Notes: generated by a model not told the origin, from the sequence alone. 52,686 bases of DNA from Minisyncoccota bacterium (GCA_041675045.1 JBAYUP010000002.1:1-52686), one strand, 5' to 3'. Shown: positions 24,664 to 52,686, numbered from the stretch's first letter. A program made the numbers and translations.

Positions 24664-25017
<354 letters not shown>

Positions 25018-41054: not shown

Positions 41055-43154
41055 TTATATATCCAACCGTGCCATTTTGGCATGAGATTGAATGAAGGCC
41101 TTACGTGGAGGAACCTCAGAGCCCATGAGCATATCAAACACCTTGTCAGCTTCCTGCGCATCAGTCACAGAAACTTGTTTGAGAATACGACGAGCTGGAT
41201 CCATGGTTGTTTCCCAAAGTTCCTCGGCGTTCATTTCTCCAAGACCTTTGTAGCGTTGAACATGAATCTTGCTCGCACGCTTTGCTTTTACATCTTCTTC
41301 GTCCTCTTCTTCTGGCTCTGCTCCCTCTGGTGCATTCTCACTTTCAGCAAGTAATTCTGCGAGATTTACAGCATCTTTGCCGAGCAATTTATCACGTTCC
41401 TCATCAGAGTACGCATACATAATTTCCTTACCTTTCTTTATTTTGAAAAGTGGTGGTTGTGCAATATACACAAAGCCCGCATCAAGTACTGCGCGGAAAT
41501 AGCGGTACATGAGCGTGAGAATAAGTGTACGGATGTGTGCACCGTCAACGTCCGCATCGGTTGCGATAATAATTTTGTGATAGCGCATTTTTTCGAGATC
41601 AAAGGTATCTCCAATCGATGTTCCCATTGCAATAACAAGATTTTTGATTTGTTCTGAGCCAAGCATACGATCAAGACGAGCACGCTCAACGTTCAAGATT
41701 TTACCGCGAAGTGGCAAGATCGCTTGTGTTTTTCGGTCGCGCCCCATCTTTGCAGTACCACCAGCCGAGTCTCCCTCTACGATGAAAAGCTCAGAAAGTG
41801 ACGCCTCTTTAACCTGACAGTCAGCGAGTTTACCAGGAAGTGTCATCCCCTCAAGCGCGCCCTTTCGGAGCACAGAATCTTTTGCAGCTTTTGCGGCCTT
41901 GCGAGCGCGAAGCGCGAGCAAGGATTTATTAATCATTGATTTCGCTTCATCCGGATTTTCTTCGAGGAACATTGTAAAAGCTTCACCAAACGCAGTCGCC
42001 ACAGCACCTTGGGCCTCAGTAGAACCGAGCTTCGCTTTTGTTTGACCTTCGAATTGAATTTCACGAAGTTTTACAGACACTACCGCAACGAGACCTTCGA
42101 GGACATCATCGCCTGTAAATCCACCATCAGCTTCTTTGATGAGATTATTTTTCTTGCCGTATGTATTTAAAATACGAGTAAGGGCAGTTTTAAATCCTGT
42201 AATATGAGTACCACCTTCAGGGTTATAAATATTGTTAGCAAACGGAACAATTTTCGGAGAAAAATCATCCACATACTGAAGTGCCACTTCGACGCCAACA
42301 TCGTCTACTTCTTTATCAGTATAAAATACAGTTGGGTGTATGGCTTTCTGTGATTTGTTGTAAAACTTTACAAGGGAAACAAGACCTCCCTCAAAATAGA
42401 ATGTTGTTGAGGGAACTTCAAGTCCGAGCTCGCTAAACCAAAAAGCATCTTCAAAATTACCCTTTCCTTTCCCACCTGTGAGAGGATCCCATTCGCGTGC
42501 ATCAATGATATCAATACGCAAACCTTTCACGAGATACGCTTGCTGACGCAAATGATTCACAATTGTATTCCAATCAAATCTTATTTGTTTAAAAATCTCT
42601 TCATCTGGCTCAAAAGAAATAATCGTTCCGTTCATTTTTGAAGAACCTACTTTTTTCACCGCAGCTTTTCTTTTACCTTGAGAATACTCTTGCACATGCT
42701 TTCCTCCTTCACGATGAACTTCTGCTTTTGTATAAATAGAGAGCGCATTCACCACAGACGCACCCACACCGTGAAGACCTCCAGAGACTTTGTATCCGCT
42801 CTCATCACCACCGAATTTACCTCCGGCATGGAGTGTCGTCATAACAGTTTCGAGCGCTGAAACTTTTGTTTTAGGATGAATAGCTACTGGAATACCACGA
42901 CCGTTATCAGCAACTCGCACAGAATTGCCTGGAAGTAGAACAACTTCGATGTGATTACAGTGTCCCCCCATCGCCTCATCGCGAGAGTTATCGAAAATTT
43001 CCCACACCAAATGATGGAGTCCATCAATACCAGTTGAACCAATATACATACCAGGACGACGACGAACTGGCTCGAGTCCCTCAAGAACAGAAATGGCTTC
43101 TGCGCCATATGAACCACCTTCTTTTTTTGTCTTTTTTGTATCGTCTTTTGCCAT
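41055..43154 (-). CDS. gyrB: DNA gyrase subunit B (699 aa from MAKDD; the ORF extends to 43175)
   Basis: GHKL ATPase motifs (EIFDNSRDE, GGLHGVGASVVNALS), TOPRIM ELFIVEGDSAGG, PLRGKILNVE, and an acidic insertion EPEEEDEED. Confidence 0.96.
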   Translation of the reverse strand: MAKDDTKKTKKEGGSYGAEAISVLEGLEPVRRRPGMYIGSTGIDGLHHLVWEIFDNSRDEAMGGHCNHIEVVLLPGNSVRVADNGRGIPVAIHPKTKVSALETVMTTLHAGGKFGGDESGYKVSGGLHGVGASVVNALSIYTKAEVHREGGKHVQEYSQGKRKAAVKKVGSSKMNGTIISFEPDEEIFKQIRFDWNTIVNHLRQQAYLVKGLRIDIIDAREWDPLTGGKGKGNFEDAFWFSELGLEVPSTTFYFEGGLVSLVKFYNKSQKAIHPTVFYTDKEVDDVGVEVALQYVDDFSPKIVPFANNIYNPEGGTHITGFKTALTRILNTYGKKNNLIKEADGGFTGDDVLEGLVAVVSVKLREIQFEGQTKAKLGSTEAQGAVATAFGEAFTMFLEENPDEAKSMINKSLLALRARKAAKAAKDSVLRKGALEGMTLPGKLADCQVKEASLSELFIVEGDSAGGTAKMGRDRKTQAILPLRGKILNVERARLDRMLGSEQIKNLVIAMGTSIGDTFDLEKMRYHKIIIATDADVDGAHIRTLILTLMYRYFRAVLDAGFVYIAQPPLFKIKKGKEIMYAYSDEERDKLLGKDAVNLAELLAESENAPEGAEPEEEDEEDVKAKRASKIHVQRYKGLGEMNAEELWETTMDPARRILKQVSVTDAQEADKVFDMLMGSEVPPRKAFIQSHAKMARLDI

Positions 43155-43233
43155 AGTATTAGAGACAGAAAGCATGAATTGCTCTCATATCATGCCTCAA
43201 GTATAGCAAGAAAACAGAATAAAATAAAGCACC

Positions 43234-43271
43234 AAAAAGCCCTTTTGGAGCTTATGGCAAAAGGGCTTTTT
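43234..43271 (-). terminator. Intrinsic terminator closing the surface-protein operon
   Basis: AAAAAGCCCTTTTG...CAAAAGGGCTTTTT hairpin of 14 bp overlapping the stop of the 481-aa gene. Confidence 0.8.
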
Positions 43272-44715
43272 ATTCTTTTTCGATATCTTTAATTTCCTTC
43301 AAGATAACCTTTTCAGCGGATTCAATATCTTTCTTAAATTTCACAAGGAATGTTCGCTCAGTTTCAGAAAGTGGCTTGTGTGCCTTTATTTTACGGAAGA
43401 TATTTATCTGCATATCCATATCCTCTTCGAGTGTTTCAAAACTCTGGGTTATCACTGATTCTGTGGTGACAAGTTTTTTCTTGAGATACGCATGCATCTT
43501 TCGCAAATAATATACTCCATAAATAATAAGTGCGATAAGAACGAGTAACAGCGCAAGAACTGGAGTAACAATAGTTAAATAATTATTTAATTTAGAAAAG
43601 AAATTTCCCCATGCATTTCTCTTAACCTCAATACGGATTGGCTTACCTGGATTGCTTTCAATACCATCTTTTGTGATAGCTTTCGCATTTACTGCATACG
43701 TTCCAAGTTTCATCTTGTCATCAGATACGAAACTCCACTTACCAGAATTGTTTGATTGGATATGTCCGACGAAATATTCAGTTGTCTCAACATTTGTCAC
43801 AGTCACATCAACATCCATGAGAGGATCCGCTGTTCCTTTTATGATAAGAAAATCATTCACATACACAGTTGTAGGATAATCAGTAATAACTGGTGTCGAA
43901 ATAGCGGTTGTTGAAAATTCAGCAAACCCACTCATTGAGACATCAAGAAGGTCGCGCGCCGTCACTTTAATAGTATGAATACCTCGCGCCAAATCTGGTG
44001 CCTCATAGATATGACTACCGTCATCAATCCATGAAATAACATCGAGAGAATCAATCGCCACAATGTACGCACGGTCTTTTACTGCACGTGGTGGAGTAAT
44101 AAGAAAACGCTTTGGTGCATTCTGTTCCCCGCTCTTTTTCAATTCTTCGATTTTAATAACATTATTAGCAGATGGTTTTGATTCCGTCGGTTCTGCTTTT
44201 GCTGGTACACGTTGTGTTGACTGAAGCACAGTGACAGTACTTATGCCTTTAGTTGAACTTAATTCCGTTCCATTTCCATCATTTGCTAAAACCGCTCCTT
44301 GTAAGAATTTAAGCGTTGCAACACCTGGTGCTTTCGCTTTGAAGATTAGCGTTACTACAGTCCCGCCACCACCAGCATAACCGTTGAGAATTACCCCTTC
44401 AAAAGTTGCAGTTCCTGTACTATTTGAATACGACGGTTCCTGTGCCCAGAGATTAATAATCGAGCCAGCTTTTGAAATTGATGTGAGAGAAAGAATTTCA
44501 CTTGGATAACTCACTTTCGCAGAAACAGCATTTATAGACGCATCACTTGAAACTGCTACACGAATACGTACGGCATCACCAACTGAATATGACGAAACTG
44601 AGGGAACAAAGTTCAATGATGCTGCGTGGGACACTTCTGCCGAAGAAAATAACCCTGCGAAAATTAAACAGAAGAGAAAAATAAAACGATTAAAATAATT
44701 TTTTACGACGAGCAT
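43270..44715 (-). CDS. Cohesin-like surface protein (481 aa) with Ig-like modules, a C-terminal TM anchor and a charged cytoplasmic tail
   Basis: Signal peptide ...SHA-AS. Cohesin-like module SLNFVPSVSSYSVGDAVRIRVAVSS...VSYPSEILSL...TFEGVILNGYAG..LIFKAKAPGVATLKF. TM helix LTIVTPVLALLLVLIALIIYGVYY. The family call is by eye. Confidence 0.6.
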   Translation of the reverse strand: MLVVKNYFNRFIFLFCLIFAGLFSSAEVSHAASLNFVPSVSSYSVGDAVRIRVAVSSDASINAVSAKVSYPSEILSLTSISKAGSIINLWAQEPSYSNSTGTATFEGVILNGYAGGGGTVVTLIFKAKAPGVATLKFLQGAVLANDGNGTELSSTKGISTVTVLQSTQRVPAKAEPTESKPSANNVIKIEELKKSGEQNAPKRFLITPPRAVKDRAYIVAIDSLDVISWIDDGSHIYEAPDLARGIHTIKVTARDLLDVSMSGFAEFSTTAISTPVITDYPTTVYVNDFLIIKGTADPLMDVDVTVTNVETTEYFVGHIQSNNSGKWSFVSDDKMKLGTYAVNAKAITKDGIESNPGKPIRIEVKRNAWGNFFSKLNNYLTIVTPVLALLLVLIALIIYGVYYLRKMHAYLKKKLVTTESVITQSFETLEEDMDMQINIFRKIKAHKPLSETERTFLVKFKKDIESAEKVILKEIKDIEKE

Positions 44716-45577
44716 ATTTTATAGCAATCAACACTACAACGAGTCCGAAGAATAGTATGAGTATATTATACACGGAGAAGAGAGGAGATGGAAGCGGTTC
44801 AATCATGGCAAATGCTTTTTTGTCACTAAAACTCACCGCTTGAATAATAATACGCTTGTGCCGAGATTGATCTTCGAGCACATACGGACTCTGTTCAACT
44901 TTTTTCCACTCACGATCACCTTCTTTTACGAGAACTTCTCTAATTCCTGATCCACCATCAGAAGCATTATAGATAAGAACAAATTTGCCCTTATACACAT
45001 CCTTATCTGTTGTCACGTATGCTTCAATCTCAGGAATACTCTCAACTCCTTCTGGAACATATTTTGTTTCCCCTTGGATATTTTTAACAATAATTTTCTG
45101 TGGAGAGGTAGAAAGAGTATGGAGTGTACCAACACCATTATTCTCGGTTGCTGTTGTAGAAATAAACGAAAGTTCACTCGCTCCATGAGAACGACCCTCA
45201 AACACAAGTCGCATCACCCGTCCTGGTGAAGACTTCCCATTACTAAATGGATCAATCACCCCCATAAAACCATTTGGAATAATCCCCGCAAAAGAGACTA
45301 CACCTTCGGTTGAGACATGAGGTTTTTCGATCCATGCGTTCACGATAGATCTCCCCTCCTCGGCCTGAATAAATGTGAGCGTCTCTTTTGAATATGAGAT
45401 TGAACCCTCAATTCCATTATAAGAAACATTTTCAGGGGAAAGAAAAACATCAACATAAAACTGTTCTCCAATCGCAACGCTTGTGCTCGAAGGAACAAAC
45501 GAGAGACTACCTGCATACACAGAAGAAGCACAAAAAAGAAGCACGGCACACAAACATCCACGATATATATATTTCAT
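44690..45577 (-). CDS. Cohesin-like surface protein (295 aa from MKYIYRG; the ORF extends to 45604) with a C-terminal TM anchor
   Basis: Signal peptide ...SVYA-GS. SLSFVPSSTSVAIGEQFYVDVFLS...ISYSKETLTF...SFAGIIPNGFMG...LVFEGRSHGASELSF is paralogous to the 481-aa protein. TM helix ILILFFGLVVVLIAI. Confidence 0.6.
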   Translation of the reverse strand: MKYIYRGCLCAVLLFCASSVYAGSLSFVPSSTSVAIGEQFYVDVFLSPENVSYNGIEGSISYSKETLTFIQAEEGRSIVNAWIEKPHVSTEGVVSFAGIIPNGFMGVIDPFSNGKSSPGRVMRLVFEGRSHGASELSFISTTATENNGVGTLHTLSTSPQKIIVKNIQGETKYVPEGVESIPEIEAYVTTDKDVYKGKFVLIYNASDGGSGIREVLVKEGDREWKKVEQSPYVLEDQSRHKRIIIQAVSFSDKKAFAMIEPLPSPLFSVYNILILFFGLVVVLIAIKYARRKKLF

Positions 45578-45591
45578 ATTAATCATAATAA

Positions 45592-46530
45592 TTATCCTGT
45601 CCAATTAAAGGCCATAATACTAAAGTCAACCAATGTAATTTTTGTATCTTTATTAAGGTCAACACGTGCTGGTGGAGCCGGTCGCTTGTACCAATACGCC
45701 ATGATTGAGAAGTCTACAAGATTCACTCGATCATCACAGTTCAAGTCACCTCGCAATTTCCCACATTCACCAACATCGAGCTTTTTGGAAAGCAAACTGA
45801 CCAAGAATGACAGCGTTGGGCTGATGGCACTGATTTGATCTTCAAGAAATGTTTTTGATTTCACTGTGTGTCCACCGTATTCAAGAGGTGACGTATCCAT
45901 GTCGTATTTATATATTCCAGTATTATCTGTTTTAACCTTGCGACTGATTTCTTCTTCTGAGTGGAATACAACATCCACGTTACTGTTAGGTGTTGTTTGT
46001 CCAAATACCTGGAGTGTATCCCCGCGTTTTACTTCCGATTTATCAATTGAGATAGTCGGAGACAAAAAGATTCCTCCGATATTCACCGTCGTACCAGATG
46101 TGACAAAAATTGGGAATGAAAATGTGAGTGATTTAACTCGATTCGCATCTTCTCCATATACAGAGAAATTATATGTACCCGAGGTAAGACCGGTCACACT
46201 AACTGAAAAGCGCGCGCCGGGATCAGACACGGTCGTAGCAGCAATAGAGCCATTTTTCAAAATAGTTATTTTGGAAGACGGATATCCGAGTCCGGAGAAA
46301 TTCACCGTTCCTTCACCTGTTCCACCTCCGCCGGCACCGCCTCCTCCACCGCCACCTCCTCCACCTCCACCACCTCCACCACCTCCACTACTCGTGGAAA
46401 CAACAGTAGCAGAAATAGTTACGGCGGAATCAACAGTTAAAGAAACGACGAGTCCAGGTAAAACAATAATCGCAATCGCAACAATACAAACTGACACATA
46501 TAATGGTTGTTTTCTCGAAAAAATATTCAT
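45592..46530 (-). CDS. N-terminally anchored protein (312 aa) with a poly-Gly linker, two Ig-like modules and a C-terminal dockerin-like repeat pair
   Basis: TM or signal-anchor helix VCIVAIAIIVLPGLVV, then a Gly run G16-A-G4 (21 residues). The C-terminus GDLNCDDRVNLVDFSIMAYWY...VDLNKDTKITLVDFSIMAFNW looks like a duplicated Ca-binding dockerin segment. Confidence 0.6.
   Translation of the reverse strand: MNIFSRKQPLYVSVCIVAIAIIVLPGLVVSLTVDSAVTISATVVSTSSGGGGGGGGGGGGGGGGGAGGGGTGEGTVNFSGLGYPSSKITILKNGSIAATTVSDPGARFSVSVTGLTSGTYNFSVYGEDANRVKSLTFSFPIFVTSGTTVNIGGIFLSPTISIDKSEVKRGDTLQVFGQTTPNSNVDVVFHSEEEISRKVKTDNTGIYKYDMDTSPLEYGGHTVKSKTFLEDQISAISPTLSFLVSLLSKKLDVGECGKLRGDLNCDDRVNLVDFSIMAYWYKRPAPPARVDLNKDTKITLVDFSIMAFNWTG
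45595..45768 (-). other. Dockerin-like duplicated segment (domain of the 312-aa protein)
   Basis: Two repeats of the form D-L-N-x-D-x-x-[VI]-x-L-V-D-F-S-I-M-A about 32 residues apart. Confidence 0.5.
46324..46386 (-). repeat. (GGN)n low-complexity tract encoding 16 Gly, 1 Ala and 4 Gly
   Basis: The plus strand reads CCACCTCCGCCGGCACCGCCTCCTCCACCGCCACCTCCTCCACCTCCACCACCTCCACCACCTCC. Confidence 0.9.
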
Positions 46531-47531
46531 TACGAAAGAGGTGCCCGTGACCTTTTAATAATATATGTATTATATTTCTTGAGTAATTGACGACCTCCTA
46601 AGAATAGTACTGCGCCAATACATACGACTACAAGCATAAGGTGCCATGGAAATACAAAAAATACGAGATGTTCAATATCGGTCTGTTGTTGATTTCCATA
46701 CACGAGGGAAAGTTTCGCAAAATACGGACCAAGTGCAAAATTCTTCCATTGATACTGGACCGTTCGAAAGAAAGAAGCCGTACGCCCTCCAAAGAATGGC
46801 TCAGAATCATCATGAGAATACTCGAGCCATTGTACTTCAAACAATCTGGTACTCCCGGGCAACACATTACCGAGAGATTGATTCGCATCAATACGTTTTG
46901 TGGGATACCATACAGTATTTCGAATTGTAATCTTCCCTTCTGGTTTTACCCTATCATTTCCATCATTACGAAAACGATACTCAAAATGAACAGGCAATGA
47001 TGTATGAAAAAACTTTTTATTTTTTGTAGCAAAACTAAGTAATCCTCCCGCTTCATTAATATCACCAACAACAGAAAGTAGGACGAGGACACCTGTTTTT
47101 GCAGCAATAGCTACCTGCCCTTCTCGAGTAGCACTTGGCGCAGTTCCAAAAAAGATAGCTCCAAAGTGCCCCCCAGAAGAAGCGTCTTTGGGAATAGAAA
47201 TAGAAACCGAAACGTTTTTTGATCCACCTGGTGGCACCGTAATAGAACTCGGGGCATTCATCCATGTACCAATATCATTTGTAGGTTCAATAAAATGAGG
47301 ACTACCAGTTTCACCCTGTGCCTCAAAATTAGCAAAGGAAATAAAAAATGTTTGTGATGTTGTTTTGTTCTCATTCAAAAGAGTAATGTCTTTGTGAATA
47401 GTGTCACCGGGCTTTCCACTCAACTCAATCCGTGCAGGAGAAACAGTTAGCGCATATACTGTGCTACTTGAAACACCAAAGAACATTATGACTACTAAGA
47501 AATATATTATTTTTTTCATATTTATATACAT
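46530..47531 (-). CDS. DUF916-like (CscA-like, PapD-like Ig-fold) secreted protein with a C-terminal TM anchor (333 aa; likely start at Met5, 47519)
   Basis: Signal peptide ...VYA-LT. LTVSPARIELSGKPGDTIHKDITLLN...WMNAPSSITVPPGGSKNVSVSISIPKDASSGGHFGAIFF. TM helix LMLVVVCIGAVLFLGG. The family call is by eye. Confidence 0.5.
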   Translation of the reverse strand: MYINMKKIIYFLVVIMFFGVSSSTVYALTVSPARIELSGKPGDTIHKDITLLNENKTTSQTFFISFANFEAQGETGSPHFIEPTNDIGTWMNAPSSITVPPGGSKNVSVSISIPKDASSGGHFGAIFFGTAPSATREGQVAIAAKTGVLVLLSVVGDINEAGGLLSFATKNKKFFHTSLPVHFEYRFRNDGNDRVKPEGKITIRNTVWYPTKRIDANQSLGNVLPGSTRLFEVQWLEYSHDDSEPFFGGRTASFFRTVQYQWKNFALGPYFAKLSLVYGNQQQTDIEHLVFFVFPWHLMLVVVCIGAVLFLGGRQLLKKYNTYIIKRSRAPLS

Positions 47532-47537
47532 ATAATA

Positions 47538-48620
47538 TTAAAAATTTGCGGTTGCCACAAAAGTCTGTGTGGTTGAATAACTTCCTGCCTCAGTCGACGA
47601 GCTTATATTGGTAATATACCTAACTGAATATGTGTCTGTTGTTGTGGCCACAGTTGCACTTGCTACTTGGGCTGACGTTGAGGACGTAGCTGTATATGCA
47701 TACCCCGACGCAGCGTACGGTGCAGTAACTGCACCTGATCCACCAGATTGTGTAAGGCGCATACCGAATTGTTCCGAACCTGCTGAAGAGTTTGTGTTCG
47801 CAGGAAGAGCAGTAATAGTATTTAATCCTGAAGTGAGAGTTGCACCTTGTACGGTGAGTGTATACCCTGTTGGGCTGTTTGTATGTGCTGCCATCGAAAA
47901 TGCTTCAGCTTCGCTTGTGGTTGGACAGGTTGTGTCTCCGGGATCAGAGCCTTGTGCAAAACACGCAAATGAAGACGATAGATTTCCGAAAAATATTGTA
48001 GCATCAGAAACAGAAAATGAGAGCGTCTCGTCAACCGTGGCAGATACGGCGACTGCACTATTTGATAGTATAGGAACAGACATAACTCCGGTATCTCCAA
48101 AACTTCCAGTTATCGAAACATATAGTGTACCAGCAGTTCCACTCGTAATACCAAACACACCAGTTGATTGGTTGGTTGCATTTGTTCCGATCTTAAAAGT
48201 AACAACGCTTCCAGCAGTGATTGGAGATGATCCGTTCGTAAATGTAATCACGGTTGCAGATGTTCGTACTACACCCGCTGTTGCACCAGATGGAGTGCTT
48301 GCAAGCGTCAAATCAACTCCATCATCAAGCACATCAATATCTGTATATGTTAGTGAGGAGTGAATTGTCGGTGCGGTAGCAGATGATGAAAACGTAAGGA
48401 TAATAGTTCCACCAGAAGCAACACCTGTCGGAGTCGTAAATACAAGTGTATGATTTGCACTTGTGCTTGCCGATTGAGTATTTAGAGCATCAGAAAGATT
48501 AGTAAGCGATGCTGCTTGCACAAAAGATACGAATGAAAATCCAAAAGTATACACAAAAACAAACACGGTAAATATAAGTTGCGTAACTATTTTATTTGTT
48601 TGTACAGAATGAATAGTCAT
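47538..48620 (-). CDS. Secreted Thr/Ser/Ala-rich beta protein (360 aa) with a WxL-like C-terminal domain; paralogue of 48624-49595
   Basis: Signal peptide ...VQA-AS. C-terminal half LSFSVSDATIFFGNLSS...GYTLTVQGATLTSGLNTITA...FGMRL...GSGAVTAPYAASGYAY...AGSYSTTQTFVATANF. Confidence 0.55.
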   Translation of the reverse strand: MTIHSVQTNKIVTQLIFTVFVFVYTFGFSFVSFVQAASLTNLSDALNTQSASTSANHTLVFTTPTGVASGGTIILTFSSSATAPTIHSSLTYTDIDVLDDGVDLTLASTPSGATAGVVRTSATVITFTNGSSPITAGSVVTFKIGTNATNQSTGVFGITSGTAGTLYVSITGSFGDTGVMSVPILSNSAVAVSATVDETLSFSVSDATIFFGNLSSSFACFAQGSDPGDTTCPTTSEAEAFSMAAHTNSPTGYTLTVQGATLTSGLNTITALPANTNSSAGSEQFGMRLTQSGGSGAVTAPYAASGYAYTATSSTSAQVASATVATTTDTYSVRYITNISSSTEAGSYSTTQTFVATANF

Positions 48621-48623
48621 ATT

Positions 48624-49595
48624 TTAAAATGTTGGCGTGGCGACAAAAGTAAGTGTGGTTGTGTATGACCCAGCAGGCAACACCTGTTCAATCGTCGCCA
48701 CTGAACGGACAGAGTATGTTGTCGTTACATCATCTCCAGTGCTTGCACTTGCAAGTGTTGAAGCGGTTGTCGTTGTTCCAGCATACGCAAAGCCAGACGC
48801 TGAATAAGGAGATGATACGGCACCAGATCCCCCAGTTGCTGTTGCGCGAATACCAAATCTGTTCGTTCCCGCTGTTGGAGTTGTGTTTGTTCCACCGATT
48901 GCAGTAATAGTATTTCCTCCGCTTGTGAGAGTATCTCCCTGCACAGTAAGAATATATCCGTATGGAGCATTTGTATTCACTGTCATATTAAATGCTTCAG
49001 TTTGAGTACTACTCCCCGTTCCATCACCGGTTGCGTACCTAAGTGCCGAAGAAGACAAACTACCGAAACCAATTGTATTGTCAGATACGGTAAACGAAAT
49101 TGCTTGAGAAAAAATATCCGCGCAGATTTTATTTGTGTAAGCACTCGGCCCTCCCGCTTGTGCATTTGTTGGAGTTCCAGACATTGACGCAACTGTTGTA
49201 TCGTACCCCGTACAATCAACAGATTCATACCCAATGGTAATAATGTCGCCAGCGTACACACTCGAGAGACAGGCATTCTGTCCATAATTTGACTCAGTAT
49301 TTTCTTCAACATGCGCGTTCGTCACGCCTGAAAGTTTTGCGAGCACTCCATAATTCCCTGAACATGAATTCCCGAGTCCCGTAACGCCACTACAACAAAT
49401 CACATTACTGTCATATACGGCTGTTGCTTGACTTGGAAGTTCAGCGTGAGCATTATCACTCCCCGAAAGACGAAGAACAACGGTACCACTACAAAGCGCC
49501 GAAGTAGTAAGTGAACACGAGAGCGCCGCATACACAACATGCAACGGCATGCCTATCAACATCAAAGCAACGACGATTGAGAAATTGTTTTTCAT
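48624..49595 (-). CDS. Secreted protein (323 aa from MKNNFS; the ORF extends to 49634) with a Cys-rich N-terminal half and a WxL-like C-terminal domain
   Basis: Signal peptide ...VYA-AL. Eleven Cys after the signal peptide and a duplicated L[RK]LSGxxNAHxE motif. C-terminal ISFTVSDNTIGFGSLSS...GYILTVQGDTLTSGGNTITA...FGIRA...AGSYTTTLTFVATPTF. Confidence 0.55.
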   Translation of the reverse strand: MKNNFSIVVALMLIGMPLHVVYAALSCSLTTSALCSGTVVLRLSGSDNAHAELPSQATAVYDSNVICCSGVTGLGNSCSGNYGVLAKLSGVTNAHVEENTESNYGQNACLSSVYAGDIITIGYESVDCTGYDTTVASMSGTPTNAQAGGPSAYTNKICADIFSQAISFTVSDNTIGFGSLSSSALRYATGDGTGSSTQTEAFNMTVNTNAPYGYILTVQGDTLTSGGNTITAIGGTNTTPTAGTNRFGIRATATGGSGAVSSPYSASGFAYAGTTTTASTLASASTGDDVTTTYSVRSVATIEQVLPAGSYTTTLTFVATPTF

Positions 49596-49596
49596 A

Positions 49597-52500
49597 TTAT
49601 GGTTGTGGTTCACTGGATGATAGAGAAGATGCATCAGAATTTACGGGATCAGACGGAACATTTACATCTCCATCACCAGTTACCGGAGGAAGTGATCCAC
49701 CTGTTCCTTCGTCTACGGTCACATCGTCACCTGAAGATGAATCATCCCCACCGCTTACATCAATACCTGACGCATCGCTCCCATCTGTCCCGCTATTTCC
49801 TGAAGCATCTCCGCCATCTACCACGCCAGATCCATCAGAGGATCCACTTCCACCACCTGAACCTCCACCATTTGACCCATCAGAAATAGTTCCACCTAAA
49901 AGTTCTTTCAATTTTTTCAACTCCTCTCGTGTCACACAGACATCTTCTTCCGCTTCGTCGTCACCAGAAAGACACAATTTCTTTGTGCGGACTTCCCCAA
50001 AGAACACAACCTCAAGAGAATTATCAATATCAGCGAGGAATGTTTTCACAAGAGATGCTACTGAATTTTGATTCTCGAGATCAAGCGACGCGACACCCTC
50101 CACCTTAATATTCAAATCTTGAATTGATTTCACAATAAGTGGAGTGAGTTGACTATAACTCACCTTCCAGTATTCATTTGGATTTGTGGGTGCAAACACC
50201 GCATCAGGATATGATTCGTATAATTCTTGTGCAACGAAACCATGCACGAGATTTTCAGGATTTGCATTGTAGTAGAAGTCTCTAACTTTAATACTCATCA
50301 AGTCAGTAAGACCAATAGTTGTATCTGTAATTGGGTTATTATTTTTCAATCGTTCGTCAGATGGCGCACAGACATTTGCTTGTCCACCGGTATAACAAAT
50401 AGATCCGACATCGCCTCCATCTCCATCATTGAATTGAATCCATTTACCTGCACTTGGTGTATCGGCACCTGCTTGGATGACAATACCGTAACGGTTGTCA
50501 TTGTTACCATCGTTGAAGAAATTAGCAGAGTAGGTTGAAGAGGCATCAGCTCGAACATCAAGACGGTACGAAGGAACGTTTGTACCAATACCTAAATTAT
50601 TTGAAGCATCATTCCAGAAAAAGTTTGTATTATCACCAGCAAAGTTCCCACTGGCATCAACAAAGACAATAGAACCACTCGCATCTGAAAGTGTTAAAGT
50701 CTGTTTCGAAAAAGCAAGCCATCCTGAACCATCATAAAAGTTTGGTACATTTGTACTTGCGTTATAAAGGAAGAGACCTGTCGCAGGAGACGCTATTGCA
50801 TCACGTTGTCCTGTACTCAATCGTGGAGGGAGAAATCCTTGTGTTGTAGAATATATTTCAAAAACCGCAGAAGGAACAGCTCCTGTATTACTATAGTATT
50901 TAGCTGAATCAGTCATAAAGTTTGCCATAAGAATACCTCCACCAGTATTAGAGTCAGATTGAATCATACCAGCCGTATTAATCAACAAACCATAATTTCT
51001 AAGACGAGTACCTGCCCCTGCAATATCAAATACTCCTGCATTCGTCGTCATGTAGCCCCATTTTGACAATACCCCCTCAGAGGTATTTATATCAGAACGG
51101 ATTTCAAGCATCGTATCACCTGTTGTGTTTTTTACTCTCAAGAGATAATCATAGAGTGTCTGTCCTGTAATCTGGAGGTATGCTGTTGGGTTTGATTCTC
51201 GAATACCAATATTTCCATTTCCTTTTACGATTAACCTATCACCACCGGCAAGTGTATATGAAGATCCCGATGCAGTACCTGAAAACGCAACCGAGACAGT
51301 AATATCAGTATCTGAAGTAATTACAGATATGGTTTTTGTTTCAGATCCTGAAGTAGTTGTTACAGTAATCGTATCACCCACTTTGAATGTATTTGTAAAT
51401 TGCGTACCCGAACCAGTAACGGTCGTCGGCGCACCGCCAGTAATCGTCACAGTACCTGTTCCTGCTGTTGGTTGTGTAACTTGGAAATTCGCTGTCGGCG
51501 ATGTTGTGCCAAGACCGAGACGATTGTTGGTGTTGTCAAAGAAAAGACTAGTAGTATCTGAAGTTAGGTTTCCACTTGCATCAGCAAACATGAGTGACCC
51601 CGATGCTGTTTGTGTCTCACCAGCAATGAGTGCTATTTGATTTCTTATTGAAGCTGGGGTGAAATACAATGTCGAACTACTAAATTCAAATGCCCCAGCT
51701 TCTGGCGTTGCCATATTTGTTCCCGTCGTAAGTTTAAGTGGTGCAAAATTCGCACTTCCATCGCCGGCTTTTATATGGAGAAGTGCGGATGCCGTACCAG
51801 AATCACCGATACGAAAATTTCCATTTGCATTAAGATTCATTCGAGCTGTATCATTAGTTCCGAAATATATTCGTGCATTCTCACGATTATAAAAATACGC
51901 ATCAGCTCCATTCACACCAAAGGTAAACCCGTCAGCAGTTGAATTATACCCAGTATCAGTTGTTTGAATTTGATTATACGAAACAGAACCTGTCGAACGC
52001 AGATATAGCTGTATATTTTGATTTGTATAGATGTCGAGAGGCGACGCAGGAGTTGCAGTACCTATTCCTAGATAATTCGAGGATGCGTCCCAGAAGAGAC
52101 TGCTATTGTCTTCAGCGACATATCCACTGGTCGTTGCAAACAAAACTGAGCCCGTCGTAAACGCTGTAGCAGTTGCATTTTGCAAGAGAATATTACGATC
52201 ACTATTTGATGGAGAGAAATAAAGTTGAGTTCCATCGTATTCCACCGCCCCCGCTTCTGCTGTGGTGAGATTTGTTCCAGAAGTAAATTTAAGTGGTGCA
52301 GTTGAAGCAGTTGCTGTACCTGCGGGTAAGTGTAATCGTGCAGTTGCACCCACTGTACCAATCCCCACATTACCAGTAGTTGCTATTCTAATAGCATCAG
52401 TTCCACCATTGATACCAAAGCCGAGCGCAGTGCCACTACTTGCTGAAGTTAAGTACCCGAGAGAAGCTTCGGTTCCGTAGATAACACCATTAAGACTAGA

Positions 52501-52686
52501 ATCGAGGAAGTAAGCAATTTCACCCGTTCCACTTCTTCGAATATCCAAATGCGCCCCCGGACTCGCCGTCCCAACTCCTAATCTGTTGTTCGAATTGTCC
52601 CAGAAGAAGCTTGCATTATCTTGTGTATAGTTTCCACTTGCATCAGCAAAGACAATAGAACCTGGTGTAAATGTAGTAGAGGTTCC
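49597..52686 (-). CDS. Giant tail-fibre-like surface protein, N-terminally truncated by the window edge (at least 1029 aa) with an internal S74 intramolecular-chaperone domain and an acidic Gly/Ser/Asp tail
   Basis: The frame stays open from 52686 with no stop, so the TTG at 52548 is not the true start. A ~40-aa motif GS[IVL]xF[AV]xxSGxxxxDxxxxF[FW][DN]xxxNxLG[IVL]GT occurs four times. The S74-like block is SDERLKNN...GFVAQELYESYPDAV...VSYSQLTPLIVKSIQDL. Confidence 0.75.
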   Translation of the reverse strand, partial: GTSTTFTPGSIVFADASGNYTQDNASFFWDNSNNRLGVGTASPGAHLDIRRSGTGEIAYFLDSSLNGVIYGTEASLGYLTSASSGTALGFGINGGTDAIRIATTGNVGIGTVGATARLHLPAGTATASTAPLKFTSGTNLTTAEAGAVEYDGTQLYFSPSNSDRNILLQNATATAFTTGSVLFATTSGYVAEDNSSLFWDASSNYLGIGTATPASPLDIYTNQNIQLYLRSTGSVSYNQIQTTDTGYNSTADGFTFGVNGADAYFYNRENARIYFGTNDTARMNLNANGNFRIGDSGTASALLHIKAGDGSANFAPLKLTTGTNMATPEAGAFEFSSSTLYFTPASIRNQIALIAGETQTASGSLMFADASGNLTSDTTSLFFDNTNNRLGLGTTSPTANFQVTQPTAGTGTVTITGGAPTTVTGSGTQFTNTFKVGDTITVTTTSGSETKTISVITSDTDITVSVAFSGTASGSSYTLAGGDRLIVKGNGNIGIRESNPTAYLQITGQTLYDYLLRVKNTTGDTMLEIRSDINTSEGVLSKWGYMTTNAGVFDIAGAGTRLRNYGLLINTAGMIQSDSNTGGGILMANFMTDSAKYYSNTGAVPSAVFEIYSTTQGFLPPRLSTGQRDAIASPATGLFLYNASTNVPNFYDGSGWLAFSKQTLTLSDASGSIVFVDASGNFAGDNTNFFWNDASNNLGIGTNVPSYRLDVRADASSTYSANFFNDGNNDNRYGIVIQAGADTPSAGKWIQFNDGDGGDVGSICYTGGQANVCAPSDERLKNNNPITDTTIGLTDLMSIKVRDFYYNANPENLVHGFVAQELYESYPDAVFAPTNPNEYWKVSYSQLTPLIVKSIQDLNIKVEGVASLDLENQNSVASLVKTFLADIDNSLEVVFFGEVRTKKLCLSGDDEAEEDVCVTREELKKLKELLGGTISDGSNGGGSGGGSGSSDGSGVVDGGDASGNSGTDGSDASGIDVSGGDDSSSGDDVTVDEGTGGSLPPVTGDGDVNVPSDPVNSDASSLSSSEPQP
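50095..50367 (-). other. Peptidase S74 / chaperone-of-endosialidase-like autoproteolytic domain
   Basis: CAPSDERLKNNNPITD...LMSIKVRDFYYN...HGFVAQELYESYPDAVF...WKVSYSQLTPLIVKSIQDLN matches the family pattern S-D-x-R-x-K ... G-[FL]-I-A-Q-E ... Y-x-x-L ... I-Q-x-L. Confidence 0.65.

What the first reader, a model, noticed from the sequence alone, without database searches (positions are those of the whole stretch)
43270..46530. Cohesin-dockerin pair without any cellulosomal enzyme
Two paralogous proteins each carry one cohesin-like beta-sandwich after the signal peptide and end in a TM helix. The longer one also has a ~70-aa charged cytoplasmic tail. The gene just upstream encodes a protein ending in a duplicated segment (GDLNCDDRVNLVDFSIMAYWY / VDLNKDTKITLVDFSIMAFNW) that resembles the two Ca-binding repeats of type I dockerins. 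No glycoside hydrolase or carbohydrate-binding module is present. Two anchors and a single dockerin suggest alternative or hetero-oligomeric docking. Here the module would tether a surface structure rather than enzymes.
Basis: partly seen in the sequence, partly recalled or inferred. Interest (0 to 1): 0.65.

Follow-up and report, generated by a model that had tools for sequence, protein, structure and literature searches.

The report
Cohesin-dockerin anchor beside CPR pilus genes
Three adjacent genes of an uncultured ultra-small (Patescibacteria/CPR) bacterium encode a secreted protein ending in a calcium-type dockerin "plug" and two membrane-anchored proteins carrying cohesin "sockets"; the trio recurs in hundreds of such genomes and here closes an operon for the recently described Pam pilus, so it most likely fastens a surface fibre to the cell rather than organising enzymes.

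Summary
Window 43270-46530 (minus strand) encodes DocP (312 aa), CohS (304 aa) and CohL (481 aa).

- **DocP:** signal peptide, short N-terminal peptide, poly-Gly linker, two Ig domains, C-terminal dockerin.
- **CohS and CohL:** signal peptide, cohesin-fold sandwich, Ig domain(s), C-terminal TM helix. CohL adds a ~77-aa helical cytoplasmic tail.

The dockerin call rests on a family profile that hits solved dockerins first, and on conserved Ca ligands. The cohesin call rests on a pLDDT-92 model whose best PDB matches are cohesins, and on orthologues that pass Pfam's Cohesin threshold.

The Doc>Coh>Coh order is kept in 63 of 66 informative Patescibacteria loci, from at least 560 species-level genome matches. 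No glycoside hydrolase or CBM lies in the window.

The four genes upstream are a Pam-type pilus operon: a tail-fibre-like protein, two pilins that pass NCBIfam CPR_Pam_pilin_C, and a WxLIP-like membrane-anchored candidate chaperone.

DocP's mature N-terminus carries VTISATV, which mimics the shaft pilin's conserved linker VAVSATV. I infer that DocP caps the pilus base by donor-strand insertion and plugs it into the cohesin anchors. Binding itself is untested.

The 2026 Pam preprint mentions neither domain. I rate this a new variant of known kinds.

The parts
43270..44715 (-). CohL, 481 aa. Signal peptide; cohesin-fold sandwich (aa 32-164, nt 44224-44622); two Ig-like domains (aa 188-365, second is Big_13-like); TM helix (aa 380-404, nt 43504-43578); conserved helical cytoplasmic tail (aa 405-481).
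   Evidence: ORF. AF2 model pLDDT 92. Foldseek top hits are cohesins. Orthologues pass Pfam Cohesin. Big_13 found in 19 of 22 orthologues. Coordinates.
44690..45604 (-). CohS, 304 aa. Signal peptide; cohesin-like sandwich paralogous to CohL (aa ~32-175); one Ig-like domain; TM helix (aa 278-295, nt 44720-44773); short basic tail KYARRKKLF.
   Evidence: ORF. BLASTP to CohL E 7e-21. Homologous gene lies between Doc and CohL in nearly all loci.
45592..46530 (-). DocP, 312 aa. Signal peptide (aa ~1-30); donor-strand-like peptide VTISATV (aa 37-43, nt 46402-46422); poly-Gly linker (aa 49-72, nt 46315-46386); two Ig-like domains (aa 74-245); dockerin (aa 258-312, nt 45595-45759; Ca loops aa 262-273 and 291-302).
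   Evidence: Pfam Dockerin_1 22.8 bits. Profile against PDB hits dockerins first. AF2 model pLDDT 86.7 with helices 271-279 and 300-311. N-terminal motif and signal-peptide pattern across the family. Ca-ligand conservation. Coordinates.
46530..47531 (-). WxLIP-like two-domain protein, 333 aa, with C-terminal TM helix (aa 298-313). Candidate membrane-anchored pilus chaperone, comparable to PamC/PamD.
   Evidence: Pfam WxLIP_PGBD E 7e-5. 20 of 38 family members hit PF06030. Family profile hits PDB EfmWxLIP1 9i25_C at E 0.006. Lies directly upstream of Doc in 38 of 57 loci. The chaperone role is inferred from the preprint.
47538..48620 (-). Shaft-type Pam pilin, 360 aa. Conserved linker strand VAVSATV (aa 190-196, nt 48033-48053) ahead of the C-terminal pilin domain.
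   Evidence: NCBIfam CPR_Pam_pilin_C 80.2 bits against cut-off 55. V190, A194 and V196 nearly invariant. Linker motif present in most loci that carry a shaft-type pilin.
48624..49634 (-). Tip-type Pam pilin, 336 aa. Cys-rich N-terminal domain plus Pam C-terminal domain, but no donor-strand linker motif.
   Evidence: NCBIfam CPR_Pam_pilin_C 71.2 bits. Linker absent in the alignment. Replaced by ~2100-aa proteins ending in the same domain in other loci.
49597..52548 (-). Tail-fibre-like surface protein, 983 aa. Peptidase_S74 intramolecular-chaperone domain (aa 730-784, nt 50197-50361) and an acidic Gly/Ser/Asp-rich C-terminus. First gene of the cluster as seen in the window.
   Evidence: Pfam PF13884 29.3 bits against cut-off 22. 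The preprint reports a tail-fibre-like protein conserved next to pam operons.

Best explanation
**Layer A: a real cohesin-dockerin docking module (about 0.75).**
The region encodes a non-cellulosomal cohesin-dockerin docking module of the cell envelope of a Patescibacterium.
- DocP is secreted and its signal peptide is removed (inferred).
- Its C-terminal two-repeat Ca-binding dockerin plugs into the cohesin domain of CohS and/or CohL.
- CohS and CohL are held in the cytoplasmic membrane by C-terminal TM helices. CohL also reaches into the cytoplasm with a conserved helical tail.
- The domain identities and the conserved gene trio are shown. The binding is inferred.

**Layer B: the trio anchors the neighbouring pilus (about 0.4).**
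In this locus the trio is the last part of a Pam-type donor-strand-exchange pilus operon. The parts are:
- a tip-type pilin with an acceptor domain only;
- a shaft pilin with a donor linker (VAVSATV) plus an acceptor domain;
- a membrane-anchored WxLIP-like candidate chaperone;
- DocP, whose mature N-terminus carries a look-alike strand (VTISATV) on a flexible poly-Gly tether and has no acceptor domain.

I infer that DocP's strand fills the groove of the last shaft pilin. This would end polymerisation, and the dockerin-cohesin bond would then fasten the fibre to the membrane. That is the job the Pam preprint assigns to the one-piece protein PamR (N-terminal strand, two FnIII domains, TM helix). 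Here the job would be split into a plug protein and socket proteins.
For: **Domain identity.**
- Dockerin.
- Cohesin.

**Partnership.**
- Doc, CohS-like and CohL-like genes are adjacent on one strand in 63 of 66 loci with enough downstream sequence. The other 3 keep one cohesin gene.
- At least 560 species-representative genomes match, and every reliably labelled one is a Patescibacterium.
- In the window the genes overlap by 13 and 26 nt.
- The dockerin helix face LVDFSIMA is nearly invariant in both repeats. The cohesins share invariant W90, P94 and G107, and a nearly invariant LANDGxGT loop.

**Pilus link.**
- Both upstream ~340-aa proteins pass NCBIfam CPR_Pam_pilin_C.
- The preprint 10.64898/2026.03.03.709456 shows that Pam pilins polymerise by inserting the inter-domain linker strand into the next subunit. 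It notes that the linker is among the most conserved parts.
- The shaft pilin linker is V-x-[VI]-[STN]-A-x-V.
- The DocP mature N-terminus is [VIL]-x-[VI]-[ST]-A-x-V.
- The background rate of that pattern is about 2e-4 per position, or about 0.002 for an 18-aa segment.
- With the first motif position relaxed to V/I/L, about 24 DocPs carry the motif and all of them have WxLIP-like and pilin genes upstream. The strict pattern V/I gives 18. 24 of the ~30 DocPs without the motif have neither gene type upstream.
- Tip-type pilins lack the linker.
- In L026 and L082 the tip-type N-terminal domain is fused directly in front of the poly-Gly, Ig, Ig, dockerin stalk. The stalk therefore serves to display pilus-type heads.
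- PamR has the same logic in one chain.
Against: - No cohesin-dockerin or strand-groove complex was predicted or measured.
- The window's own proteins miss the Pfam thresholds: dockerin 22.8 against 22.9 bits, and no cohesin hit.
- Cohesin sequence-profile hits to PDB are weak (E 0.09-0.4).
- About half of the loci have the trio without recognisable pilin genes within 3.5 kb (28 of 57 have them). There DocP carries other N-terminal domains, so the trio is not pilus-specific as a whole.
- The motif match is 7 residues long, was found post hoc, and its link with pilin genes is confounded by phylogeny.
- The preprint on the Saccharimonadia system proposes PamR as anchor and reports no cohesin or dockerin.
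- Signal-peptide cleavage of DocP is inferred from sequence pattern only.
Confidence: 0.5

Rival explanations
1. General surface-display platform. CohS and CohL are generic membrane sockets, and DocP is one of many dockerin-tailed stalks that present variable N-terminal 'cargo'. The neighbouring pilus genes are only co-located surface genes, and DocP's short N-terminal peptide has no donor-strand role.
For: - The trio occurs without nearby pilin or WxLIP genes in 24 of the 54 loci classified.
- In those loci DocP carries FN3-type, Cys-rich, DNDGDG-repeat or other N-terminal domains ahead of the same poly-Gly, Ig, Ig, dockerin stalk.
- L001 combines the trio with extra cohesin genes and a 3249-aa PATR protein.
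Against: - In the window's subfamily the 'cargo' is only ~17 residues, yet it is conserved.
- It matches the pilin linker and co-occurs with pilin and chaperone-like genes in every motif-positive case.
- The genes overlap or abut the pilus genes in one operon.
Confidence: 0.3
2. The look-alike domains do not dock to each other. CohS and CohL are pilus-assembly or envelope factors with a jelly-roll sandwich (chaperone- or platform-like). The dockerin-like tail is a Ca-stabilised module that binds something else, such as peptidoglycan, glycan or a host surface.
For: - Both Coh proteins have 'two or three sandwiches plus a C-terminal TM', the same outline as PamC/PamD chaperones.
- Sequence evidence for cohesin is weak for the window proteins.
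- Many non-cellulosomal dockerins have no known partner (own knowledge).
Against: - Foldseek ranks cohesins first and shows no PapD/FimC in the top 50.
- Orthologues pass the Pfam Cohesin threshold.
- A separate WxLIP-like chaperone candidate is already present.
- The near-obligate Doc>Coh>Coh synteny is what a binding pair predicts.
Confidence: 0.15
3. A minimal cellulosome-like enzyme scaffold, whose dockerin-bearing enzymes are encoded elsewhere in the genome.
For: Cohesin-bearing membrane anchors resemble anchoring scaffoldins. Fold hits include C. thermocellum OlpA and OlpC cohesins 3ul4 and 4dh2.
Against: - No GH or CBM lies in the 52.7-kb window.
- The conserved dockerin partner next door carries only Ig domains.
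- Patescibacteria have small genomes with few polysaccharide-degrading enzymes (own knowledge).
- Each Coh protein has a single cohesin.
Confidence: 0.03

Closest known systems
Cellulosomal type I cohesin-dockerin pairs, especially cell-surface anchoring cohesins (C. thermocellum OlpA/OlpC with Doc918/Doc435, PDB 3ul4 and 4dh2)
   Same: - A ~140-aa nine-strand sandwich plus a ~55-aa duplicated Ca-binding F-hand module.
- Internally symmetric dockerin repeats.
- The cohesin sits on a cell-bound protein and the dockerin on a secreted one.
   Different: - No enzymes, no CBM and no multi-cohesin scaffoldin.
- Anchoring is by C-terminal TM helices, not SLH domains or sortase.
- The recognition positions 10 and 11 hold a hydrophobic Leu-Val pair, where I recall a Ser-Thr pair in type I dockerins.
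- The host is a Patescibacterium.
Non-cellulosomal cohesin-dockerin modules (for example the C. perfringens GH84C cohesin-FN3 construct, PDB 2w1n; scattered cohesin/dockerin genes in archaea and bacteria)
   Same: The docking pair is used outside cellulose degradation. The cohesin is followed by an Ig/FN3 domain, and 2w1n is the second-best fold match.
   Different: - Those pairs join soluble toxins or enzymes, or are orphans.
- Here the pair is a fixed three-gene cassette with two membrane sockets, conserved across at least 560 species-level genome matches and linked to pilus genes.
Pam pilus system of CPR bacteria (PamA/B/E/T pilins, PamC/D chaperones, PamR anchor; bioRxiv 10.64898/2026.03.03.709456)
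   Same: - Two upstream genes pass the NCBIfam Pam pilin model.
- A membrane-anchored two-domain chaperone-like gene and a tail-fibre-like neighbour are present.
- DocP copies PamR's outline of an N-terminal strand plus two Ig/FnIII domains.
   Different: - PamR ends in its own TM helix. DocP ends in a dockerin, and the TM helices sit on separate cohesin proteins.
- The preprint mentions neither cohesin nor dockerin. It maps Pam mainly to Saccharimonadia and Microgenomatia, whereas reliably labelled relatives here are Paceibacterota/Parcubacteria-type lineages.
- No NCBIfam Pam model other than the pilin models hit the window proteins.
WxL / WxLIP (Csc) surface-protein clusters of Firmicutes (PMC10599100; PDB 9i25, 9i1y EfmWxLIP1)
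   Same: - The 333-aa protein belongs with WxLIP/DUF916: two sandwich domains plus a C-terminal TM helix.
- It sits next to a small and a large secreted protein that share a C-terminal domain.
   Different: - The pilins do not hit the Pfam WxL domain.
- As far as I know, WxL clusters contain no cohesin or dockerin genes.
Pilus terminators and anchors: PapH of chaperone-usher pili, and sortase-linked basal pilins of Gram-positive pili
   Same: The proposed role is the same: a last subunit that can donate but not accept, which stops growth and fixes the fibre to the cell.
   Different: Attachment here would be a non-covalent Ca-dependent protein-protein plug to membrane proteins. It would not be retention in an outer-membrane usher or a covalent link to peptidoglycan. 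This role is inferred, not shown.

Membership tests
Dockerin (Pfam PF00404) | Two tandem ~22-residue F-hand segments, each a 12-residue Ca loop followed by a helix | tested here: met
Loops at aa 262-273 and 291-302. AF2 helices at 271-279 and 300-311.
Dockerin (Pfam PF00404) | Ca-ligand residues (Asp/Asn) at loop positions 1, 3, 5, 9, 12 | tested here: met
   - Repeat 1 has D, N, D, N, D, conserved in 115-118 of 118 sequences.
- Repeat 2 has D, N, D, T, D. Positions 1, 5 and 12 are kept in 118 of 118, position 3 in 98 of 118, and position 9 varies among T, N, S and D.
Dockerin (Pfam PF00404) | Profile score at or above the curated threshold | tested here: inconclusive
   - The window protein scores 22.8 bits against a cut-off of 22.9.
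- Most of the 120 listed homologues carry a precomputed PF00404 hit.
- The family profile hits solved dockerins first, at E 2e-4.
Dockerin (Pfam PF00404) | Ca2+-dependent binding to a cohesin | not testable with these tools
   No complex prediction or experiment was possible. Only conserved synteny supports it.
Cohesin (Pfam PF00963) | ~140-residue nine-strand jelly-roll beta-sandwich | tested here: met
   - AF2 places the sandwich at aa 32-164, with block pLDDT above 90 for most of it, falling to 86-89 at its C-terminal end.
- Foldseek gives TM 0.73-0.75 and rmsd 2.7-3.0 to the cohesins 6kgc_A, 6kgf_C and 3ul4_A. The top-ranked hits are cohesin-containing chains.
Cohesin (Pfam PF00963) | Profile score at or above the curated threshold | tested here: inconclusive
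   - Neither window protein hits the profile.
- Orthologues P0007, P0017 and P0025 (40-53% identical) score 28.8-31.9 bits against 24.1, over profile positions ~3-132 of 139, on the same domain.
Cohesin (Pfam PF00963) | Binds a dockerin on its 8-3-6-5 sheet face | not testable with these tools
Cellulosome | Dockerins borne by glycoside hydrolases or other CAZymes | tested here: not met
   DocP has only Ig-like domains. No GH or CBM lies in the window.
Cellulosome | Scaffoldin with several cohesins and a cellulose-binding module | tested here: not met
   There is one cohesin per protein and no CBM.
Pam pilus system (CPR) | Pilins with the Pam C-terminal truncated-Ig domain | tested here: met
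   NCBIfam NF058581 scores 80.2 and 71.2 bits against a cut-off of 55.
Pam pilus system (CPR) | Conserved inter-domain linker strand that is donated to the next subunit | tested here: inconclusive
   The motif V-x-V-x-A-x-V at aa 190-196 of the 360-aa pilin is nearly invariant. That it is the donated strand is inferred from the preprint's description. No structure was available.
Pam pilus system (CPR) | PapD-like chaperone with a C-terminal TM helix (PamC/PamD) | tested here: inconclusive
   The 333-aa protein has two sandwich domains plus a TM helix and is WxLIP-like. No PamC/D model hit it, and no fold comparison was done.
Pam pilus system (CPR) | PamR-type terminator and anchor (N-terminal strand, two FnIII domains, TM helix) | tested here: not met
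   No such one-piece protein lies in the cluster. DocP plus CohS/CohL is proposed as a split equivalent.
WxL / WxLIP cluster | WxLIP (DUF916) protein | tested here: met
   20 of 38 family members hit PF06030, best E 2.9e-7. The family profile hits EfmWxLIP1 at E 0.006. The window protein itself is below threshold, at 23.3 bits against 27.3.
WxL / WxLIP cluster | Proteins with the Pfam WxL domain | tested here: not met
   No Pfam hit for either pilin or for 33 family members. No PDB hit either.

The most novel reading that the evidence does not exclude
A donor-strand-exchange pilus of a wall-bearing, outer-membrane-less bacterium is terminated and held to the cell by a cohesin-dockerin bond.
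- DocP is a 'donor-only' last subunit. Its N-terminal strand caps the shaft pilin.
- Its dockerin plugs into two different membrane cohesins.
- One of these, CohL, couples the fibre to the cytoplasm through a conserved helical tail.

This would be the first cohesin-dockerin pair used as a pilus anchor. It would also be a third way to anchor pili, beside ushers and sortases.
Probability: 0.35. Interest if true: 0.8.

Novelty: new variant of a known kind. Interest (0 to 1): 0.62.

Why it matters
Patescibacteria make up a large share of bacterial diversity and live attached to other cells, yet how their surface fibres are built and held is barely known.

- The only description of Pam pili, a 2026 preprint, leaves anchoring to a predicted protein (PamR). 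It also notes that the pili detach easily.
- A conserved cohesin-dockerin cassette at the end of the operon in Paceibacteria-type lineages offers a concrete, testable anchoring mechanism.
- It also extends the cohesin-dockerin pair, known for high mechanical strength in cellulosomes, to fibre attachment.
- The cassette is found in at least 560 species-level genome matches. It gives three uncharacterised, very common protein families a working annotation.
- The variable N-terminal 'cargo' on the DocP stalk suggests a modular surface-display system that could guide host-recognition studies.

Tried and rejected
1. **Direct PDB sequence searches with the window proteins.** CohL gave nothing. The DocP results were swamped by poly-Gly linkers, with the dockerin 2y3n_B only at E 0.1.
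2. **Foldseek of the DocP model.** The two Ig domains dominate, so it says nothing about the small dockerin.
3. **Link to the essential 'dockerin' protein SEML1_0315 of Southlakia epibionticum (PMC10633639).** That is a stand-alone 927-aa protein with no cohesin neighbours, so it is not an orthologue of DocP.
4. **Are the pilins WxL-domain proteins?** There were no Pfam or PDB hits for them or for 33 relatives. This idea came from memory and is unsupported.
5. **Literature searches.** Cohesin or dockerin combined with Patescibacteria, CPR or Parcubacteria returned nothing describing this cassette.
6. **Is UGA recoded?** An in-frame TGA splits rpoB at a conserved Gly, and no true stop in the window is TGA. 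Every public contig that covers the site, including those of the run holding the whole window, reads GGA. I reject recoding and treat it as a record error or rare variant.
7. **Transcription evidence.** Wastewater runs labelled RNA-Seq hold short contigs on Doc, CohS and CohL. The library type is only guessed, DNA carry-over cannot be excluded, and the peak at 46230-46552 comes from the low-complexity poly-Gly region. I do not use it as proof.
8. **Promoter and terminator scan.** Counts were no higher than in shuffled sequence.

Full report
**What is there**

Window 43270-52548 holds seven tightly packed minus-strand genes:
- 49597-52548 (983 aa)
- 48624-49634 (336 aa)
- 47538-48620 (360 aa)
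- 46530-47531 (333 aa)
- 45592-46530 (312 aa, here DocP)
- 44690-45604 (304 aa, CohS)
- 43270-44715 (481 aa, CohL)

Neighbouring genes overlap or lie within 6 nt of each other. The finding covers the last three. gyrB follows downstream and thrS lies beyond it. The rest of the window is housekeeping: uvrA/B, tgt, mreB/C, rpsB, tsf, rpoD, dnaG, rpoB/C, RNase R, smc, rnc and nusB. There is no glycoside hydrolase or carbohydrate-binding module. GC content is about 40%. The same sequence is held in full by a landfill metagenome run, and close relatives occur in wastewater, sediment and groundwater runs.

**The dockerin**

DocP ends in two look-alike segments, with Ca loops at aa 262-273 and 291-302.
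- Pfam Dockerin_1 scores 22.8 bits against a cut-off of 22.9.
- DocP has 1398 database homologues with E<=0.001. The best 120 are 51-70% identical over the query (residues 72-312), and most of them carry a precomputed PF00404 hit, often with Big_6.
- A profile of 118 of them hits solved dockerins and little else: 2y3n_B at E 2e-4, then 5nrm_B, 5nrk_B, 1daq_A, 2mte_A and 4fl4_A.
- Loop positions 1, 3, 5, 9 and 12 read D, N, D, N, D in repeat 1 (115-118 of 118 sequences). In repeat 2 they read D, N, D, x, D.
- The AF2 model (pLDDT 86.7) shows an N-terminal helix at 10-27, a disordered Gly run, two Ig-like sandwiches at 74-245, and two short helices at 271-279 and 300-311, as expected for a dockerin.

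**The cohesins**

CohS and CohL are paralogues over their first ~150 residues (E 7e-21).
- Neither hits Pfam Cohesin directly.
- The AF2 model of CohL (pLDDT 92.1) has a sandwich at 32-164. Its best PDB matches are cohesins (4fl4_I, 2w1n, 3l8q, 3kcp), and single-cohesin chains score TM 0.73-0.75 at rmsd 2.7-3.0.
- Orthologues at 40-53% identity pass Pfam's Cohesin threshold on that same domain, with 28.8-31.9 bits against 24.1.
- Sequence-profile hits to solved cohesins stay weak, at E 0.09-0.4.

The cohesin call therefore rests on fold plus transitive homology.

After the cohesin domain, CohL has two Ig-like domains (Big_13 in 19 of 22 orthologues). These are followed by a TM helix (380-404) and a conserved helical tail of 77 residues. 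CohS has one Ig-like domain, a TM helix (278-295) and a short basic tail.

**Conservation**

A scan of one genome per species found at least 560 genome stretches that encode a DocP relative. Every reliably labelled one is a Patescibacterium: Paceibacterota, Nomura-, Kaiser-, Portnoy-, Wolfe-, Magasanik- or Veblenbacteria. Some pipeline labels, such as 'Gammaproteobacteria' and 'Saccharibacteria', look generic.

In the 80 fetched loci, plus four from a contig look-up:
- Doc is followed on the same strand by two or more cohesin genes in 63 of 66 loci that have enough downstream DNA. The other three have one. Fourteen have a third.
- A WxLIP-like gene lies directly upstream in 38 of 57 loci.
- Pam-type pilin genes lie within 3.5 kb in 28 of 57 loci.

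**The surroundings: a Pam-type pilus operon**

- NCBIfam's CPR_Pam_pilin_C model hits the 360-aa and 336-aa proteins above threshold, with 80.2 and 71.2 bits against 55.
- The model derives from a June 2026 preprint (10.64898/2026.03.03.709456). There, cryo-EM of Ca. Mycosynbacter amalyticus filaments identified the pilins PamA and PamB. [quoted passage not shown]
- The same operon holds membrane-anchored PapD-like chaperones (PamC/D), a tip pilin (PamT) and PamR. PamR has an N-terminal strand, two FnIII domains and a TM helix, and is proposed to end growth and anchor the fibre. A tail-fibre-like protein is conserved nearby.
- In the window, the 983-aa protein has a Peptidase_S74 domain typical of tail fibres.
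- The 333-aa protein belongs to a large family (5375 clusters). Its members hit Pfam WxLIP_PGBD (20 of 38), and the family profile hits the solved EfmWxLIP1 (E 0.006). It ends in a TM helix.
- The preprint mentions neither cohesin nor dockerin. Literature searches found no description of this cassette.

**The link between the trio and the pilus (inference)**

DocP N-termini across the family look like cleavable signal peptides, with a hydrophobic run, a Pro, and then a small residue such as Ala. In the window's subfamily a short mature peptide follows, holding [VIL]-x-[VI]-[ST]-A-x-V. This is VTISATV at aa 37-43 in the window. A Pro/Ser/Thr stretch and a poly-Gly run come next.

The shaft-type pilin has V-x-[VI]-[STN]-A-x-V between its two domains. 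This is VAVSATV at aa 190-196, and V190, A194 and V196 are nearly invariant. The preprint states that the donated linker is among the most conserved parts of Pam pilins.

- The pattern occurs about 2e-4 times per position in the loci's ORFs, and those counts include the true instances.
- Locus by locus, the shaft pilin has the linker in most loci, while the tip-type pilin lacks it. In some genomes the tip-type pilin is a ~2100-aa protein ending in the Pam domain.
- With the first motif position relaxed to V/I/L, about 24 DocPs carry the motif, and all of them have WxLIP-like and pilin genes upstream. The strict V/I pattern gives 18.
- Of the ~30 DocPs without the motif, 24 have neither gene type upstream. 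They carry other N-terminal domains instead (FN3-type, Cys-rich, DNDGDG repeats). In L026 and L082 the N-terminal domain is the tip-type pilin head itself, fused to the poly-Gly, Ig, Ig, dockerin stalk.

The parts thus form a complete logical set:
- an acceptor-only tip;
- a donor-plus-acceptor shaft;
- a chaperone candidate;
- a donor-only DocP;
- membrane sockets.

DocP plus CohS/CohL would do in three chains what PamR is proposed to do in one.

The association is confounded by relatedness, the motif is short, and no complex was modelled. I therefore put this layer at about 0.4, and the docking pair itself at about 0.75.

**What remains open**

- Whether the dockerin binds CohS, CohL or both. 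The near-perfect symmetry of the two LVDFSIMA helices and the obligate presence of two cohesin paralogues fit alternative or simultaneous binding, but nothing tests this.
- What CohL's conserved cytoplasmic tail contacts.
- What the trio does in genomes without nearby pilins.

**Comparison and novelty**

- The modules belong to the cohesin and dockerin families by fold, profile and Ca-ligand pattern.
- The system fails both defining features of a cellulosome, since it has no enzyme-borne dockerins and no multi-cohesin scaffoldin.
- The pilus genes belong to the Pam system by the curated pilin model, but the anchor differs from PamR.
- Non-cellulosomal cohesin-dockerin pairs are known in general.

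A conserved Doc>Coh>Coh membrane cassette in Patescibacteria, tied to a donor-strand pilus, is to my knowledge undescribed. I rate it a new variant of known kinds.

Noticed in passing
window 25018-25020 (minus strand, inside rpoB): An in-frame TGA splits rpoB (ORFs 25018-27837 and 24664-25014) exactly at the conserved Gly of the VGYMYMLKL motif. All public contigs covering the site, including those of the run that holds the whole window, read GGA. The window record therefore carries an error or a rare variant, and this is not a recoded codon.
   Followed up: yes
whole window, 32 gene ends: Stop-codon use is 28 TAA, 3 TAG and 0 genuine TGA. The only TGA is the rpoB artefact. Strong TGA avoidance may be a trait of the lineage, and I found no evidence of reassignment.
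   Followed up: partly
window 49597-52548: The 983-aa tail-fibre-like protein has a Peptidase_S74 intramolecular-chaperone domain (motif SDERLKNN at aa 730-737) followed by a ~200-aa acidic Gly/Ser/Asp-rich tail. It is the first gene of the pilus cluster. Its relation to the pilus (tip adhesin or a separate fibre) is unknown.
   Followed up: partly
window 48624-49634; loci L016, L018, L023, L025, L031, L048, L049: The 336-aa pilin lacks the donor-linker motif and has a Cys-rich head. At the same position other genomes encode ~2100-aa proteins ending in the Pam C-terminal domain. These look like interchangeable pilus-tip adhesins.
   Followed up: partly
loci L026 (9224-10753) and L082 (8274-9548): In these loci DocP is a fusion. 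The Cys-rich head of the 336-type pilin (45-48% identical to window residues ~12-172) sits directly in front of the poly-Gly, Ig, Ig, dockerin stalk, and no separate pilin or WxLIP gene is nearby.
   Followed up: partly
loci L008, L010, L037, L041, L046, L051, L065, L076 and others: Other DocP variants carry different N-terminal modules ahead of the same stalk. These include an FN3-type domain with an SSxNF...GFLYFP leader, small Cys-rich units (CGDGSCNGSETCxxCxxDCGxC; LGFxxGxLxCxxxCxFxTSxC), and DNDGDGxIDYPxDPGC repeats. This is a modular cargo set of unknown function.
   Followed up: no
window 46530-47531 and 47538-49634: The 333-aa protein is related to Firmicute WxLIP (DUF916). The cluster layout (small and large secreted proteins sharing a C-terminal domain, plus a TM-anchored two-domain protein) parallels WxL clusters. 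Pam operons and WxL clusters may be related, but the pilins gave no WxL hit.
   Followed up: partly
window 45745-45765 (DocP aa 256-262): Two Cys residues flank the start of the first Ca loop (C256, and C265 which is kept in 103 of 118 sequences). This may be a disulphide clasp. An R-G-D tripeptide at aa 260-262 is present in 70 of 118 family members, and its Asp is Ca ligand 1.
   Followed up: no
window 47545-47561 (minus strand): A terminator-like hairpin followed by a T-run overlaps the last codons of the shaft pilin gene. It could set a higher pilin-to-accessory expression ratio, as in other pilus operons. However, terminator-like sites are no more frequent here than in shuffled sequence.
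   Followed up: no
window 43273-43578 (CohL aa 380-481): The TM helix plus long cytoplasmic helix of the CohL family gives weak hits to ATP synthase subunit b (9vkp_b, E 0.06). This is probably helix composition. It is noted only because the Pam preprint reports ATP synthase genes next to pam operons.
   Followed up: no
locus L001 (1-12788): A relative combines the trio with two extra strong-Cohesin genes (437 aa each) and a 3249-aa PATR-repeat protein directly upstream. No pilin genes are present.
   Followed up: no
window 43000-46900, runs X4, X5, X7, X13: Wastewater runs labelled RNA-Seq contain short contigs, some 100% identical, on DocP, CohS and CohL but almost none on the pilin genes. 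This could mean transcription in situ by close relatives, but the library type is uncertain.
   Followed up: partly
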